Assembly (NCBI GenBank): GCA_964636285.1
Contig: CAZWQF010000004.1
Location: 3,666 to 67,665 of the forward strand
Length of the DNA stretch: 64,000 bases
Source of the DNA: an uncultured Candidatus Saccharibacteria bacterium
GTDB lineage: Bacteria > Patescibacteriota > WWE3 > UBA101185 > 2-01-FULL-41-18
Direction: 5' to 3'
The notes beneath the pieces were generated by a model. It worked only from the letters and a program-made list of their open reading frames with translations, did not search any database and had not been told where the DNA came from. The position numbers and the translations under genes were made by a program. Positions 46,520 to 52,139 of the stretch are shown here, in pieces. Each line of letters begins with the position of its first letter. Position 1 is the first letter of the stretch.

Positions 46520-46738
46520 TCTTGAGCTAGCGCTTGTCCTGACAACATCTGCTCATCAACTACGGGGAAGGCCAAAAGCCTTGGGCGTAAGCCTGACAGC
46601 CCAGATTCGCAAAATAAATCTAGGCTGTCCCCCTCTCTCACTTTTCCCCAAAGCACTTTGTATTTGACTACCACTATTTAACTTATTGCTATAAAATACC
46701 CGCAACAAATAAACCTAAAAACCTTAAGTGGAGGTGTC
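46520..46738 (+). promoter_or_regulatory. Island intergenic module copy 1 (GGGGAAGGCCAAAAGCCTTGGGC, hairpin GACAGCCCAGATT...AATCTAGGCTGTC, GTCCCCC, TTGACT...TGCTATAAAAT promoter-like box)
   Basis: Shares its 5-prime half with the copies at 47745, 49007, 51326 and 51967. Confidence 0.5.
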
Positions 46739-46984
46739 ATGCGAACCGGATACCATAGAGGTACTTTTCACCTTAAGTATGGGTGGTCAGAAGAGCTAGG
46801 CAGAACATTTATTGAGGTCCACGATCACGTACCGCCATCTGAGGTACTGATTCTGGCACTCCAGCTTGGGATAGCTCAATACCCAGATGACCCAGACGAT
46901 CCGATTTTGGCTGTGAAGCTGCCAAAAAAGGAAAAGCCGGAACTTATCAGATTCTCAGCTCTAAAGAAACGACTGAGGATCTAG
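46739..46984 (+). CDS. Island small soluble protein C (81 aa), family 4
   Basis: SD GGAGGTG; C-terminal ILAVKLPKKEKPELIRFSALKKRL matches LLFVQLPGSDKPEFLSAAQIRDRM of 51110..51325. Confidence 0.5.
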   Translation: MRTGYHRGTFHLKYGWSEELGRTFIEVHDHVPPSEVLILALQLGIAQYPDDPDDPILAVKLPKKEKPELIRFSALKKRLRI

Positions 46985-47144
46985 GGAGGTACTGAATGCG
47001 CAAAAAGTCCATGGCATAGCGTATGGTTGGAATGACGAATGGAAAGCCTTAATCCAACAGCTTAACCAGCTATCTGGAGTTGAGGTGGTACACTATGTCC
47101 CATCAAACGAGCCCAACAAGGCTTAGTAAAAAGGAAAAAGGCAG

Positions 47145-47744
47145 ATGGACACCAAATTGTGGAACCGACTTCTAGGCGTCTTTGGCGTTTTGTTTGGGGT
47201 TGTTATTCTGATCACAACGCTTCAGCTCACTGAGACAATAGGCGTTGGAGCAGTGTGGGTTCTGATGCTCTTGCTTGGGGTGGCTTGCGTATGGATGGGC
47301 ATCACTGGACTTAGATACAAACCCAAGGTGCTTGTGGAACCGAGTGACAAAGTCCAAGCACTTCATAGGCTTGGAGTTGCACGGATCAAAAGCGCAGGAG
47401 TGGGAGCGAATGTGCTTGGAGATAGGACAAGGTGGTGGTTTGGCCAAATCCTTACCCCAGTCCATTTTCAAGTTCACGGGCGCAATTTGACCCTCACTCT
47501 CTCGGCTGGCCCCAATGCACTTGGAGAGCACAGGGTTTTTGATAACACTGAAGCACTTCCTGCCGATGTTGTGAGTGCCGCCAATCAACTGAGACACGTG
47601 TTCCCAAACCCCAAGTTCATTGTGGAGAGGTCAGGACAAAGGCTCAGACTGAAGGTAATACTCCACTCCGATCAAGAATGCATGCTCTATCTAGAGGATG
47701 AATTCTTCCACGAACAGTATGGGGCAAACTTCTCGCTGTTCTAG
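47145..47744 (+). CDS. Island 2-TM membrane protein D (199 aa), family 1 (LGEH ... RLKVILHSD ... MLYLED domain)
   Basis: SD AAAAGGAAAAAGG; two N-terminal TM helices; C-domain alignable to 50488..51096. Confidence 0.55.
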   Translation: MDTKLWNRLLGVFGVLFGVVILITTLQLTETIGVGAVWVLMLLLGVACVWMGITGLRYKPKVLVEPSDKVQALHRLGVARIKSAGVGANVLGDRTRWWFGQILTPVHFQVHGRNLTLTLSAGPNALGEHRVFDNTEALPADVVSAANQLRHVFPNPKFIVERSGQRLRLKVILHSDQECMLYLEDEFFHEQYGANFSLF

Positions 47745-47947
47745 ACCCCAAACTTAGCACCCAGACTGCGCCGTAAACAAATTGTGGGAGGATAGAAATA
47801 TCTTGAGCATAAGCTCGGCAACCCAGATTCATAAAAAAAATCTAGGCTGTCCCCCACTACTACCTTCTAAATGATTTTGTTCATTTTCATTTTCTTATTT
47901 TTAGAATTACAATCCGTATTAACAAGACCTAGTTTGTGGAGGAAACC
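47745..47947 (+). promoter_or_regulatory. Island intergenic module copy 2 (hairpin CAACCCAGATTC...AATCTAGGCTGTCCCCC, then TTTTCATTTTCTTATTTTTAGAATTACAATCCGTATTAACAA leader)
   Basis: Conserved with the modules at 49007, 51326 and 51967; TACAAT -10-like element. Confidence 0.5.
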
Positions 47948-48523
47948 ATGAAACGACTATTTGGTGTGTGTGAATTTCTGTTGGGGTTAGGAATCGTCAT
48001 CTATCTGATCCTGTTACCAAACAGGGAAAGCATAGACCCTCTACTCCAAGTCTTCACTCTTGTAGTAGGAATGACACTCGTTGTAGTAGGTTCAATCTAC
48101 CTCTTCATCCCTGAGTCAAACAACCCGCTCAGACAGCATGAGCTAAGCATCCAGAACCTGATTGCAACAGGCCTTTACAAGTTTGTGGATCAGTCTGTGC
48201 AAGATAGGGATGGGAATTGGCACAGCCTCGTCCAATTCAACAGTGGATTAACGAGCCTTCTTGGAGCAGTAGCAACCAAAAAGCAACAGCTGCGCAGACG
48301 ATTAATACAGGGAAATATCAGCCTGCTTCCAAGCGACATGCTTGCCATCGCGGAGCAAACATCAAAGCATTGGCCAGCATGGATTTCCATGGAAAAAGGA
48401 ACCTGGGGAAATGTCTACTACCTGGAGTTTGTGATCGCAAAAGGCAAGCTCTGGGAAACAGTACTTGTGTTCCCCATCAGGGGTGCGGACTACAGCGCAC
48501 TGCTTAAGCACATCGAAGGATGA
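47948..48523 (+). CDS. Island 2-TM membrane protein E (191 aa), family 2 (YLILLP N-terminus)
   Basis: SD GGAGGAAACC before ATG at 47948; paralog of 49202..49849. Confidence 0.55.
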   Translation: MKRLFGVCEFLLGLGIVIYLILLPNRESIDPLLQVFTLVVGMTLVVVGSIYLFIPESNNPLRQHELSIQNLIATGLYKFVDQSVQDRDGNWHSLVQFNSGLTSLLGAVATKKQQLRRRLIQGNISLLPSDMLAIAEQTSKHWPAWISMEKGTWGNVYYLEFVIAKGKLWETVLVFPIRGADYSALLKHIEG

Positions 48524-48529
48524 CGCCTA

Positions 48530-50299: not shown

Positions 50300-50487
50300 C
50301 GCATGAACCTGTGACTCTGGCTCTAGTTGAGTCTAGGTTTTATGCTCGGCACGCACTCGCAGACAAATTCGGAATGAATGCGAGTGCGTGCCCCTATTAA
50401 TCTTCGATCAAAAAAATAAATGGATTACCTCTTTTTATTTAGCTGATATAAAATACAAAGCACAAAACTAGAAAGGGAGATCAAAGC

Positions 50488-51096
50488 ATGAGAAGGAACA
50501 CTTTCACACAAATGCTCGGAGGCCTGAGCATGGCCCTAGGACTTTTGGCATTGCTGGTTGTCTGGCTTGGCAAAATACCATTTGGGTTTATCTGGATCCT
50601 TGCCCTACTGACAGCACTTGCAGCTGTTGTGATTGGGGCTGGAGTTCTCTTTGGGCTGTTTGGAAAAAGGCCAAATAGTCAGCGAGATCTGGAGGAATTA
50701 CATACGCTTGGCATCAGTTGGGTGAAGAAGCTTGGTGCTGTTTTTCCTGCGGATGAAAGCCGTTGGCAAAATGGCGATTTGATTGTAAAGTGCCACTTCA
50801 ACACTATTGTAGGGGATGCTCTGTTTGAGTTAACCGCGAGTGCAAAGCCACTGGGTGAACATGTGTTTTTGCATACATGGCCTTTGCCAACCACGGATAT
50901 TGAAACAATCAAAAAGCTTCTGTCCCTCTTTCCAGATCTGAAGGTCATTGTAGAAAAGGCAAACGAGCGTGATTTCAGACTCAAGCTCCTCTTGCACACT
51001 GACCACTACGGCAACATGCTTTACCTGGAAGACAGGCTTTTTGGTGGAGCCTCAGCATGGTTCTGCAAAGCGCTCTTTCCAACTGAAGAAACCTAG
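50488..51096 (+). CDS. Island 2-TM membrane protein J (202 aa), family 1
   Basis: SD AAAGGGAGA; PLGEHVFLH...FRLKLLLHTDHYGNMLYLED parallels D. Confidence 0.55.
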   Translation: MRRNTFTQMLGGLSMALGLLALLVVWLGKIPFGFIWILALLTALAAVVIGAGVLFGLFGKRPNSQRDLEELHTLGISWVKKLGAVFPADESRWQNGDLIVKCHFNTIVGDALFELTASAKPLGEHVFLHTWPLPTTDIETIKKLLSLFPDLKVIVEKANERDFRLKLLLHTDHYGNMLYLEDRLFGGASAWFCKALFPTEET

Positions 51097-51109
51097 AAAG
51101 GAACTTGAC

Positions 51110-51325
51110 GTGAGAACACGGCATTCACACACAGCAGAGTTGCTTTTTGTTCAAGCTGAGGCTGGAGATACTGCAGAGCAGGTTATTAAAACGGCTCGAG
51201 AAGCAGGAGCCTGCTATCACGAGGACGACACACTCCTTTTTGTCCAGCTACCAGGTTCAGATAAACCTGAATTCTTGAGCGCGGCTCAAATTCGAGACCG
51301 AATGGAGATGGGTCTATATGACTGA
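51110..51325 (+). CDS. Island small soluble protein (72 aa, GTG start), family 4
   Basis: SD GAAAGGAAC 5 nt before GTG at 51110; C-terminus aligns with protein C. Confidence 0.4.
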   Translation: MRTRHSHTAELLFVQAEAGDTAEQVIKTAREAGACYHEDDTLLFVQLPGSDKPEFLSAAQIRDRMEMGLYD

Positions 51326-51498
51326 TTGAATAAAAAGTCAGGATAGATCTAGCCACAAATGGGGGAGGTAGAAATACCTTGGGCATACACTCACAATCAG
51401 GACTTTCTTGATTGCCCCCTCTCATTTTCATATTCTTATTTTTAGTATTACAATCCCTATTAACAAAATCCATCTTCAAGACGAAAGGAAACCTTCAC
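51326..51498 (+). promoter_or_regulatory. Island intergenic module copy 4 (GGGGGAGGTAGAAATACCTTGGGCA, hairpin, CCCCCTCTC, TTTTCATATTCTTATTTTTAGTATTACAATCCCTATTAACAAAATCCATCTTCAAGACGAAAGGAAACC)
   Basis: Near-identical leader to copy 3. Confidence 0.55.
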
Positions 51499-51966
51499 AT
51501 GAGCACCAATAACGAAACTGAAGATCTTACGCTGGTTAGGAGACATCTTCAGCACTTGGAAGTCATTGCGGCAATGCGACAAGGCGGTGTGTACGTGAAT
51601 CGTCACACAGACTGTTCCCCGCTTCACCAACCCAACGGTAGGTTTTATACCCAAGGAGGAATGCCAAAGGCCAACTTCTGCCTGTACACTGAGCCGTGGC
51701 AACGCCAGGGTACAACCGACATCAATCTGAAGGCGTCGATCAGCCTGTTCAGTAAACCCGTGCAGGATATGCTGACCAAACTGCGACAGGTGCTCAAAGT
51801 CACCAGAGTGGTGGTTTACTTGCACTCCAAGTACGAGGGCAAGTACTGCCTCATGTTGCTTGTCAGATCTGAAAACGGGATTGAAAGTTGGGTGCAGTTC
51901 CTGTTTGAGGAGCGCTACCATCAAGATGATGCCAAAGCCTGCAAGAGGCTACTGGGGCTGAGCTGA
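51499..51966 (+). CDS. Island soluble protein K (155 aa), family 3
   Basis: ENGIESWVQF...AKACKRLL aligns to F ADGIEHWVIF...MKACMRLL. Confidence 0.55.
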   Translation: MSTNNETEDLTLVRRHLQHLEVIAAMRQGGVYVNRHTDCSPLHQPNGRFYTQGGMPKANFCLYTEPWQRQGTTDINLKASISLFSKPVQDMLTKLRQVLKVTRVVVYLHSKYEGKYCLMLLVRSENGIESWVQFLFEERYHQDDAKACKRLLGLS

Positions 51967-52139
51967 CAAACATAGGGGGAGGTAGAAATACCTTAGGTAC
52001 TAGCCTAGCAAGCCAAATCTAATAAAGATTAGCTTGTCCCCCACCCTTTTTACAAGGCGTTTCTTGTTCGACTTTCATATTCTCTACTTTGGTAATACAA
52101 TCTGAATCAACATCAATCCTAACGAAAGGCTTTTTTCAA
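51967..52139 (+). promoter_or_regulatory. Island intergenic module copy 5 (GGGGGAGGTAGAAATACCTTAGGTA, hairpin AGCAAGCCAAATCT...AGATTAGCTTGTC, CCCCCACCC, TTTCATATTCTCTACTTTGGTAATACAATCTGAATCAACA ... ACGAAAGGC)
   Basis: More divergent copy of the same module. Confidence 0.5.

What the first reader, a model, noticed from the sequence alone, without database searches (positions are those of the whole stretch)
46520..52139. Conserved 150-200 bp intergenic module reiterated five times between island cassettes
Spacers at 46520-46738, 47745-47947, 49007-49201, 51326-51498 and 51967-52139 share an ordered set of blocks. A GGG(A/G)AGG...AAA(G/T)(C/A)CTTGGGC box comes first. Next is a hairpin whose loop is AAAA-rich (for example GACAGCCCAGATT-cgcaaaataa-AATCTAGGCTGTC), followed by GTCCCCC(A)CTC without a T-run. 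Then comes TTTTCATATTCTcATTTTTAGTAcTACAATC, which is promoter-like (TACAAT -10, TTTCAT about 17 nt upstream), then GTATTAACAA...TTCAAGACGAAAGGAA leading into the start codon; these last two blocks are missing from the 46520 copy, which has a TTGACT...TGCTATAAAAT box instead. A second promoter type, TGATATAAAATA, precedes the cassettes at 46322 and 50488. The module looks like a portable promoter-plus-leader unit, or a recombination/cassette-boundary site that lets cassettes be shuffled or added. The conserved leader could also be a shared cis-regulatory RNA.
Basis: seen in the sequence. Interest (0 to 1): 0.6.

Follow-up and report, generated by a model that had tools for sequence, protein, structure and literature searches.

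The report
Repeated cloverleaf-plus-promoter gene-boundary cassette
Five spacers in a 9-kb island of orphan genes each carry a ~65-nt four-armed folded element after one gene group and (in four of them) a conserved promoter and leader before the next, much like the shuffling cassettes of T4-like phages; it is real but seen only in this one genome and untested.

Summary
The repeats are real and far beyond chance: patterns for both halves hit only the stated spacers, with 0 expected.

The "module" is two separable elements, 6-42 nt apart.
- **Structured element.** The G-box, the hairpin and the C-run together form one 59-70 nt four-way junction ("cloverleaf": P1 GGGG/CCCC closing P2, P3 and P4). 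It is present in all five spacers. Base changes in P2-P4 keep the pairs. A model built from four copies recovers the withheld fifth.
- **Promoter plus leader.** A sigma-70-like promoter (TTTCAT-N17-TACAAT) with an unstructured A-rich leader occurs four times, with a degenerate fifth at 45525.

The flanking genes are ORFan paralogs at 24-37% aa identity, with coding DNA at background identity. The modules keep 76-92% identity, sit next to non-homologous genes, and share blocks in a mosaic pattern.

My best reading is a transcription-unit boundary cassette: a 3'-end attenuator/stabiliser followed by a re-initiation promoter, kept alike by selection or gene conversion. The closest analogue is the phage PeSL. 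It is not an integron attC site, a tRNA, any Rfam family or a canonical terminator. No relatives turned up in any collection I searched. Function is inferred, not shown.

The parts
46564..46633 (+). Cloverleaf copy c1 (P1 GGGG/CCCC; P2 AAGGC-CAAAA-GCCTT; P3 GGGC-GTAA-GCCT; P4 GACAGCC.AGATT/AATCT.GGCTGTC). It lies 45 nt after the stop of the 65-aa TM gene.
   Evidence: The MFE is a four-way junction at -34 kcal/mol, z -3.9. The CM scores 60.4 bits. Pattern hit.
47786..47854 (+). Cloverleaf copy c2 (P2 AGGATA-GAAA-TATCTT; P3 GAGC-ATAA-GCTC; P4 carries one A.C mismatch). It lies after A-family gene 47145-47744.
   Evidence: It folds as a cloverleaf when given exact ends. In the 84-nt context the MFE is an alternative fold. 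The CM scores 59.5 bits.
49020..49085 (+). Cloverleaf copy c3, after C-family gene 48530-49006.
   Evidence: The MFE is a cloverleaf, z -3.9. The CM scores 51.7 bits.
51361..51419 (+). Cloverleaf copy c4. Its P4 has an unrelated sequence (CAATCAGGA-CTT-TCTTGATTG). It lies after D-family gene 51110-51325.
   Evidence: The MFE is a cloverleaf, z -3.8. A CM built without this copy finds it at 21.4 bits, E 1.7e-4.
51975..52042 (+). Cloverleaf copy c5, after C-family gene 51499-51966.
   Evidence: The MFE is a cloverleaf, z -3.6. The CM scores 56.5 bits.
47885..47947 (+). Type-1 promoter (TTTCAT-N17-TACAAT with conserved spacer and ATTAACA) plus leader and SD, upstream of B-family gene 47948.
   Evidence: (D1/D2).
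49128..49201 (+). Type-1 promoter plus leader (ATTAACAAAACCCATTTTCAAGACGAAAAGGAA), upstream of B-family gene 49202.
   Evidence: The leader is unstructured.
51426..51498 (+). Type-1 promoter plus leader, upstream of C-family gene 51499. It starts only 6 nt after cloverleaf c4.
52073..52139 (+). Type-1 promoter plus a more diverged leader, upstream of B-family gene 52140.
45525..45581 (+). Degenerate sixth type-1 promoter (65-70% identity, TAAAAT -10), upstream of the TM gene whose ATG is at 45582.
46666..46698 (+). Type-2 promoter (TTGACT ... TGCTATAAAATA). In the 46520 spacer it takes the place of type 1. Related copies lie at 46258-46282 and 50431-50455.
   Evidence: D12, D20; three hits, 0.04 expected.
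50348..50392 (+). Long hairpin without a T-run. It ends unit 49202-50299 in place of a cloverleaf.
   Evidence: the 111-nt spacer containing this hairpin folds at -49 kcal/mol, z -7.2.
52742..52783 (+). Canonical hairpin plus T-run terminator that closes the last reiterated unit.
45368..45499 (+). First island spacer. It holds a branched hairpin GACACGG..CCGTGTC followed by TCCCC (the stem resembles P4), a second hairpin, and a canonical terminator. This may be a degenerate relative of the cloverleaf.
   Evidence: There is a weak CM hit at 45438-45500 (13.8 bits, E 0.05).

Best explanation
Each spacer is a composite transcription-unit boundary.

**Proposed mechanism**
1. The upstream one- or two-gene unit is transcribed into a ~65-nt four-way-junction element. 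G-run P1 closes three hairpins, and a C/U-rich tail follows.
2. That element most likely attenuates read-through and protects the mRNA 3' end. It sits where the other units of the island have ordinary terminators, but it lacks a proper U-run.
3. A sigma-70-type promoter 6-42 nt downstream (TTTCAT-N17-TACAAT) and an open, A-rich leader with a GGA/GGAGG Shine-Dalgarno re-start expression of the next unit.

**Why the copies stay alike**
- The two elements are separable and occur next to non-homologous genes.
- They remain far more alike than the saturated coding DNA, because of selection and/or gene conversion.
- Their homology in turn provides sites for duplicating and reshuffling cassettes, as shown for PeSL cassettes of T4-like phages.

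**Shown:** the repetition, the conserved fold with compensatory changes, the promoter-like sequence, and the mosaic similarity between copies.

**Inferred:** termination or stabilisation, promoter activity, and recombination.
For: **More than chance.** 0 expected against 5 found, for both halves.

**Conserved fold**
- The MFE is the same [] shape in 4 of 5 copies in context and 5 of 5 with exact ends, z from -2.7 to -4.5. Only 1-4% of shuffles give that shape.
- In a hand-made structural alignment 121 of 125 cells are paired, and 15 of 28 pairs change on both sides.
- The tool count on four copies gives 97% paired and 9 compensatory pairs, with 0 of 500 shuffles reaching this. Slid controls give 27-56%.
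- RNAalifold returns the same structure.
- A CM built from four copies finds the withheld c4, whose P4 is unrelated in sequence (E 1.7e-4). It finds nothing at E below 0.4 outside the island.

**Position**
- Every unit ends in a structure: five cloverleafs, one long hairpin and three hairpin-plus-T-run terminators between 45470 and 52783, with a bidirectional terminator at 53900-53928 closing the island.

**Promoter and leader**
- The promoter scan lists all type-1 copies.
- The leaders are unstructured.

**Conservation against the genes**
- Paralog proteins are 24-37% identical. Coding-DNA identity is 52-55% against 49-51% for unrelated genes.
- Promoters are 76-92% identical and cloverleaf blocks up to 90%.
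- Block A groups c1 with c3 and c4 with c5. Block B groups c1 with c2 and c3 with c5. The promoters group c2, c3 and c4.

**Analogue**
- PeSLs are composite promoter/stem-loop cassettes with polyG...polyC stems that flank ORFans. Terminator activity, promoter activity and recombination have all been shown for them (PMC2839356; PMC4122927).
Against: - There is no transcript data.
- The cloverleafs lack the U-run that this genome's other terminators have (60718, 61484, 52742), so efficient intrinsic termination is doubtful. None was listed by the terminator scan.
- P1 never varies, so the closing stem, and with it the "four-way junction", rests on thermodynamics alone.
- The minus strand folds about as well, so the acting strand, and whether the structure acts as RNA or DNA, is undecided.
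- There are only five copies from one genome and they are related. The covariation counts come from an alignment fitted to the structure.
- The mosaic pattern rests on blocks of 30-40 nt.
Confidence: 0.55

Rival explanations
1. The cloverleaf is a DNA-level recombination site. A folded single strand or an extruded cruciform would be recognised by a site-specific recombinase encoded elsewhere, making the island an integron-like cassette array. The promoters would simply travel with the cassettes.
For: - The structure is conserved while the sequence varies, and both strands fold.
- A perfect four-way junction with no linker bases resembles a Holliday junction.
- One site follows each cassette, all in the same orientation.
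- Paralog gene order is permuted and block sharing is mosaic.
- The island is foreign-looking: 45-47% GC against about 40%, next to tRNA genes, and free of the host's REP-like repeat.
Against: - No integrase or recombinase domain was found in the island or in the neighbouring ORFs scanned.
- The attC core sites RYYYAAC/GTTRRRY are absent from four of the five spacers.
- There is no unpaired central spacer and no extrahelical bases.
- Not every cassette has a site: the B-C, A-D and D-A pairs share one.
- The GAAA and GUAA loops on the sense strand fit RNA better.
Confidence: 0.13
2. The cloverleaf is an RNA processing or punctuation signal. A structure-specific nuclease would cut long read-through transcripts into stable unit mRNAs, as tRNA-like t-elements do in organelles. 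Alternatively it binds a protein that regulates the whole island.
For: - It has a compact multi-helix fold with GNRA-type loops (GAAA in three copies, GUAA in one), 9-45 nt after stop codons.
- No U-run follows it, so read-through is plausible.
- Five copies would allow co-ordinated control.
Against: - It is not tRNA-like by ARAGORN or Rfam, and there is no 3' CCA.
- The helix lengths do not match a tRNA.
- Each following unit has its own promoter, so processing is not needed for expression.
- No conserved single-stranded motif is available as a cleavage site or ligand pocket, because the junction has no unpaired bases.
Confidence: 0.15
3. The repeats are neutral leftovers of tandem duplication of one ancestral cassette, or a selfish REP/MITE-like repeat, and have no role of their own.
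For: - The cassette genes are paralogs (families A, B, C and D), so duplication did happen.
- This genome has another abundant hairpin repeat family.
Against: - Coding DNA of the paralogs is at background identity (52-55% against 49-51%), while the modules keep 76-92%.
- The same module adjoins non-homologous genes.
- Base changes in P2-P4 are compensatory.
- All copies lie in one orientation, only in spacers, and only in the island within this 64-kb window. A dispersed selfish element would not be expected to show that pattern.
Confidence: 0.1

Closest known systems
PeSL (promoter-early stem-loop) cassettes of T4-type phages (Arbiol et al. 2010, PMC2839356; Comeau et al. 2014, PMC4122927)
   Same: [quoted passage not shown]
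- It combines a stem-loop rich in polyG...polyC, a sigma-70-like promoter and a Shine-Dalgarno sequence.
- It is reiterated between small ORFan genes and stays conserved while the genes differ.
- It is proposed (and, for PeSLs, shown) to insulate transcription and to serve as short homology for cassette shuffling.
   Different: - This one is in a bacterial chromosome island with no detectable phage homology.
- The structured part is a ~65-nt four-way junction lying upstream of the promoter at variable distance. A PeSL has a simple hairpin within or overlapping the promoter.
- The promoter hexamers are weaker matches to consensus (9 of 12).
- No activity or recombination data exist.
Integron attC sites and cassette arrays
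   Same: - A site defined by structure rather than sequence lies at the 3' end of gene cassettes.
- All sites share one orientation, in an array of unrelated or ORFan genes.
   Different: - No R''/R' core sites.
- No hairpin with extrahelical bases.
- No integrase nearby.
- The cassettes carry their own promoters, and some cassettes lack a site.
Intrinsic (Rho-independent) terminators, including tail-less 'I-shaped' ones
   Same: - A G+C-rich closing stem placed directly after coding units.
- A pyrimidine-rich stretch lies downstream.
   Different: - The fold is branched rather than a single hairpin.
- A C-run follows instead of a U-run, and the terminator scan did not call it.
- The same island and host also use canonical hairpin-plus-T-run terminators.
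Conserved 5' expression cassettes of bacterial multigene families (e.g. Mycoplasma vsp/vpma loci; from my own knowledge, not checked here)
   Same: - A highly conserved upstream non-coding block precedes diverged paralogous membrane-protein genes in a tandem array.
   Different: - In those loci a site-specific recombinase moves a single promoter between genes.
- Here every unit has a promoter, and no recombinase or inversion sites are seen.

Membership tests
PeSL cassettes (T4-type phages) | Composite intergenic motif: a sigma-70-like promoter, a stable stem-loop (often polyG/polyC) and an SD, lying between the stop and start of flanking ORFs | tested here: met
   The definition comes from PMC2839356. 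The stem-loop here is a branched four-way junction lying upstream of the promoter.
PeSL cassettes (T4-type phages) | Located in hyperplastic regions of a T4-like phage genome | tested here: not met
   The window is a bacterial chromosome (TopA, PBP2, DnaX, aaRS, MreB). There are no PHROG hits and no phage DNA similarity.
PeSL cassettes (T4-type phages) | Demonstrated terminator and promoter activity, and recombination between copies (indels, mini-circles) | not testable with these tools
   Only indirect evidence: mosaic block identities and permuted paralog order.
Integron attC | Terminal core sites R'' (RYYYAAC) and R' (GTTRRRY) that pair in the folded strand | tested here: not met
   the motif is absent from four of the five spacers on either strand. 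The closing stem is GGGG/CCCC.
Integron attC | Association with an IntI tyrosine recombinase (or at least an array in which every cassette ends in a site) | tested here: not met
   No recombinase domain in the island or the scanned neighbours. Gene pairs share one site. The rest of the genome is not available.
Intrinsic terminator | G+C-rich hairpin immediately followed by a U-run | tested here: not met
   One search lists no cloverleaf. The tails are CCCCC(A/T)CTC.
tRNA / tRNA-like element | tRNA cloverleaf geometry recognised by ARAGORN or Rfam RF00005, with a 3' CCA-like end | tested here: not met
   Searches find only the four true tRNAs. The helix and loop lengths differ and there is no CCA.
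Any Rfam 15 family | Covariance-model match | tested here: not met
   Searches (gathering threshold; E up to 10 across the island) give no hit on any module.
REP/MITE-type dispersed repeat | Many copies dispersed around the genome, in both orientations | tested here: inconclusive
   The CM finds copies only in the island and only on the + strand within this 64-kb window. The remaining genome could not be searched.

The most novel reading that the evidence does not exclude
The ~65-nt linker-free four-way junction is a new class of structured cassette-boundary element. One possibility is a folded-DNA recombination site of a non-integron gene-cassette system whose recombinase lies elsewhere in this poorly sampled bacterium. 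The other is a new RNA punctuation or insulator motif that defines mRNA ends without a U-tract. In either case it would drive the birth and shuffling of ORFan membrane-protein genes in a cellular genome.
Probability: 0.12. Interest if true: 0.8.

Novelty: new variant of a known kind. Interest (0 to 1): 0.45.

Why it matters
If the reading holds, PeSL-style "mobile regulatory cassettes" are not confined to T4-like phages. They would also organise an ORFan island in a bacterial chromosome.

That would give a concrete mechanism for how lineage-specific genes are duplicated, insulated and expressed. Each gene group would carry its own end-structure and promoter, and those conserved blocks would double as recombination handles.

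The cloverleaf is also an unlisted structured motif. It has compensatory changes, GNRA-type loops and a linker-free four-way junction, and it could be a new kind of 3'-end or boundary element.

Against this, it is known from five copies in one metagenome-derived genome, with no expression data.

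Tried and rejected
**Searches for relatives: all empty**
- Promoter pattern in genome contigs, viral contigs and metagenome contigs.
- Cloverleaf pattern in viral contigs and metagenome contigs.
- KsgA-anchored synteny search in genome contigs.
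- blastn of the island against phages and plasmids.

**Protein homology: paralogs in this genome only**
- A family among 1.84 billion representatives.
- B family.
- C family.

**Annotation of the cassette proteins: nothing**
- Pfam, PHROGs and PADLOC.
- AlphaFold models are confident: C family pLDDT 80 and pTM 0.79; A family pLDDT 76 and pTM 0.60.

**Organism not identified**
- Cluster look-up gave no names.
- The only other contig (Logan SRR12762304) is 100% identical to window 44069-58533, so there is no population variation to exploit.

**Ideas rejected**
- attC site.
- tRNA-like element or any known Rfam family.
- Canonical terminator.
- Structured leader or riboswitch.
- Strand assignment from wobble pairs: the + strand has 8 G.U pairs, and the - strand would have 6. 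Energies are similar on both strands, so this is undecided.

**Technical note**
- MAFFT alone mis-aligned the copies. I therefore fixed the structural register by N-padding.

Full report
**Setting**

The window is a bacterial chromosome of about 40% G+C. It encodes TopA, PBP2, DnaX, ProRS, CysRS, MreB, Def and Fmt. Four tRNA genes lie at 43226, 44070, 44880 and 58495.

Between tRNA-Thr(UGU) and a convergent ksgA-like gene (53909-54781) lies a stretch of about 9 kb, roughly 45040-53900.
- It is 45-47% G+C and all its genes are on the + strand.
- It lacks the host's abundant hairpin repeat GGTTTTAGTCTCCCGG, which has 14 half-sites elsewhere in the window.
- None of its proteins has a Pfam, PHROG or PADLOC match.

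The proteins fall into small paralog families.

| Family | Genes (start) | aa identity | Description |
|---|---|---|---|
| A | 47145, 50488 | 37% | two TM helices plus an alpha/beta domain |
| B | 47948, 49202, 52140, probably 45582 | about 26% | two TM helices plus an alpha/beta domain |
| C | 48530, 51499, distantly 49892 | 32% | soluble |
| D | 46739, 51110 | 24% | soluble, 71-81 aa |

These are ORFans in the strict sense.
- An HMM of family A finds only its two members among 1.84 billion representative proteins.
- Families B and C find only themselves.
- AlphaFold nonetheless folds the C and A families with pLDDT 80 and 76 from two or three sequences, so they look like real proteins.
- Neither model has a significant match in PDB, nor the C model in BFVD.

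The five coordinate ranges are exactly the gaps between ORFs.
- A degenerate pattern for the promoter block matches 47885, 49128, 51426 and 52073, plus a weaker sixth-spacer copy at 45525. None is expected by chance.
- A pattern spanning the G-box to the C-run matches all five spacers and nothing else.
- The alternative promoter box TGnTATAAAATA occurs three times, only in the island.
- The similarity is therefore not a matter of short AT-rich stretches.

The G-box, the "hairpin" and the "GTCCCCC" are strands of one fold.
- Folded alone, each 68-86-nt segment gives the same architecture in four of five cases. With exact ends it does so in five of five.
- A 3-5-bp G/C closing stem (P1) directly encloses three hairpins, with no unpaired junction bases:
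  - P2: 5-6 bp, loop GAAA or CAAAA.
  - P3: 4-5 bp, 4-nt loop such as GUAA.
  - P4: 7-13 bp.
- z-scores run from -2.7 to -4.5. Only 1-4% of dinucleotide shuffles adopt that shape.

The helices differ in sequence but stay paired.
- P2 reads AAGGC/GCCUU, AGGUA/UACCU or AGGAUA/UAUCUU.
- P4 of the 51361 copy is unrelated in sequence to the others.
- In my structural alignment 121 of 125 cells are standard pairs, and 15 of 28 pairs show changes on both sides.
- On four copies the tool finds 97% paired and 9 compensatory pairs, never reached in 500 shuffles. Slid registers give 27-56%.
- RNAalifold returns the same structure.
- A covariance model built without the 51361 copy recovers it (21.4 bits, E 1.7e-4). 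It gives nothing convincing outside the island.

Caveats on the fold:
- The copies are related, and the alignment was fitted to the structure.
- P1 is invariant, so it is supported only by energy.
- The complementary strand folds about as well, so RNA versus DNA, and which strand, is not settled.
- Rfam has no match even at E up to 10.

**The module is two elements**

The cloverleaf begins 9-45 nt after the upstream stop. The promoter starts 6, 30, 30 or 42 nt after it. The first spacer pairs a cloverleaf with a different promoter.

The type-1 promoter matches a sigma-70 pattern and also keeps its spacer and the following ATTAACA. The leaders fold no better than shuffles, so there is no sign of a structured cis-regulatory leader. 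They look like open, A-rich translation-initiation regions ending in GGA/GGAGG.

**Where the elements sit**

The island reads as a series of one- or two-gene units, each laid out as promoter, gene(s), then a structure. The end structure is one of the following:
- a cloverleaf, five times;
- a long hairpin without a T-run (50348-50392);
- an ordinary hairpin plus T-run (45470-45499, 46201-46262, 52742-52783);
- the bidirectional terminator at 53900-53928, which closes the island.

The cloverleaf therefore occupies the terminator position but lacks the U-run that this genome's canonical terminators have. It is followed by a C/U-rich tail. That points to an attenuator or 3'-end-protecting structure rather than an efficient intrinsic terminator. 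This step is inference.

**Why the copies stay similar**
- Paralogous coding DNA is at background identity: 52-55% against 49-51% for unrelated genes under the same alignment scheme.
- Promoters are 76-92% identical and cloverleaf blocks up to 90%.
- The same promoter-leader precedes B, B, C and B genes. Cloverleafs follow a TM-only gene and A, C, D and C genes.
- Similarity is mosaic: the P1-P3 block groups c1 with c3 and c4 with c5; the P4 block groups c1 with c2 and c3 with c5; the promoters group c2, c3 and c4.
- Paralog order is permuted: D-A against A-D, and B-C against C then B.

Simple tandem duplication followed by neutral decay does not explain this. Selection on the elements, plus recombination or gene conversion among them, does. 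The blocks are short, so this is suggestive rather than proven.

**Comparison with known systems**

The closest described system is the PeSL of T4-type phages.
- PeSLs are composite stem-loop/early-promoter/SD cassettes, often with polyG...polyC stems. They flank ORFans.
- They terminate and initiate transcription, and they recombine with each other to shuffle genes and form mini-circles (PMC2839356; PMC4122927).
- The present case works like a PeSL on every sequence-level criterion.
- It is not a member in the strict sense: the context is a bacterial chromosome with no phage signal, and the structured part is a branched four-way junction upstream of the promoter.

Other candidates do not fit.
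- Integron attC sites share the principle of structure over sequence. However, the defining core sites are absent, no integrase is nearby, and some cassettes lack a site.
- tRNA-like elements, canonical terminators and all Rfam families fail their tests.

**Limits**
- No relatives of the module, the proteins or even the neighbouring ksgA were found in any collection.
- The only other assembly of this locus is identical.
- The organism could not be named, and the rest of its genome was not available.

**Verdict**

This is a real, non-random, reiterated boundary cassette. Its upstream half is a previously unlisted four-way-junction element with good, though small-sample, support for a conserved structure. 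It is most probably a PeSL-like terminator/attenuator-plus-promoter unit in a bacterial ORFan island. That makes it a new variant of a known kind, of moderate interest, and its function awaits transcript mapping.

Noticed in passing
window 13286-13328, 16615, 21132-21184, 21926, 32593-32635, 43039-43148, 45021, 63473-63526: The host has its own inverted-repeat family (GGTTTTAGTCTCCCGGGCAGA and the variant GGGTTTTCGTTACCCGTCCAGA). There are 14 half-sites against 0.27 expected, arranged as long intergenic hairpins. None lies between 45036 and 63472, so the island is free of it. It is REP-like, or a host terminator family.
   Followed up: partly
window 45058, 52786, 54848, 61525: CCTATAGTTT occurs four times against 0.09 expected, each about 20 nt upstream of a TATAAT or TTTAAT -10 box. 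This is a third promoter class with a conserved upstream element. Two copies bracket the block of reiterated modules.
   Followed up: partly
window 45582-53857: All island proteins are strict ORFans. Family A has only its two paralogs among 1.84 billion representatives. AlphaFold still gives confident alpha/beta folds (pLDDT 76-80) that have no PDB or BFVD match. The A, B and C families show weak profile-profile hints of a shared domain.
   Followed up: partly
window 46739-47744 vs 50488-51325; 47948-49006 and 49202-50299 vs 51499-52688: Gene order of paralogous pairs is permuted: D-A against A-D, and B-C against C then B with separate promoters. This suggests cassette shuffling rather than plain tandem duplication.
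   Followed up: partly
window 45143-45320: Just after the first island promoter there is a 29-aa ORF (MGYHIAEMAIERMDEMSTYRKVLKSEGGH), followed by a second reading frame that continues in another phase. It may be a frameshifted or decayed small gene.
   Followed up: no
window 58681-58721 vs 61121-61161; 60718-60753 vs 61484-61519: Outside the island there is another pair of similar promoter/SD/start segments and a pair of near-identical hairpin-plus-T-run terminators. They lie around small tail-anchored ORFs and a PIN-domain gene (59631-60011).
   Followed up: no
window 36770-36808 vs 37836-37874: A 39-nt direct repeat (87% identity) flanks two small ORFs without Pfam hits (36894-37334 and 37344-37733).
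   Followed up: no
L001 = window 44069-58533: The independent Logan assembly of SRR12762304 is 100% identical to the window. Its contig ends fall within tRNA-Tyr and tRNA-Trp, which suggests those tRNA genes are repeated or are assembly break-points.
   Followed up: yes
window 43226-43301 and 43307-44020: A HAD-family hydrolase ORF starts within about 6 nt of the 3' end of tRNA-Thr(GGU). The packing is unusually tight.
   Followed up: no
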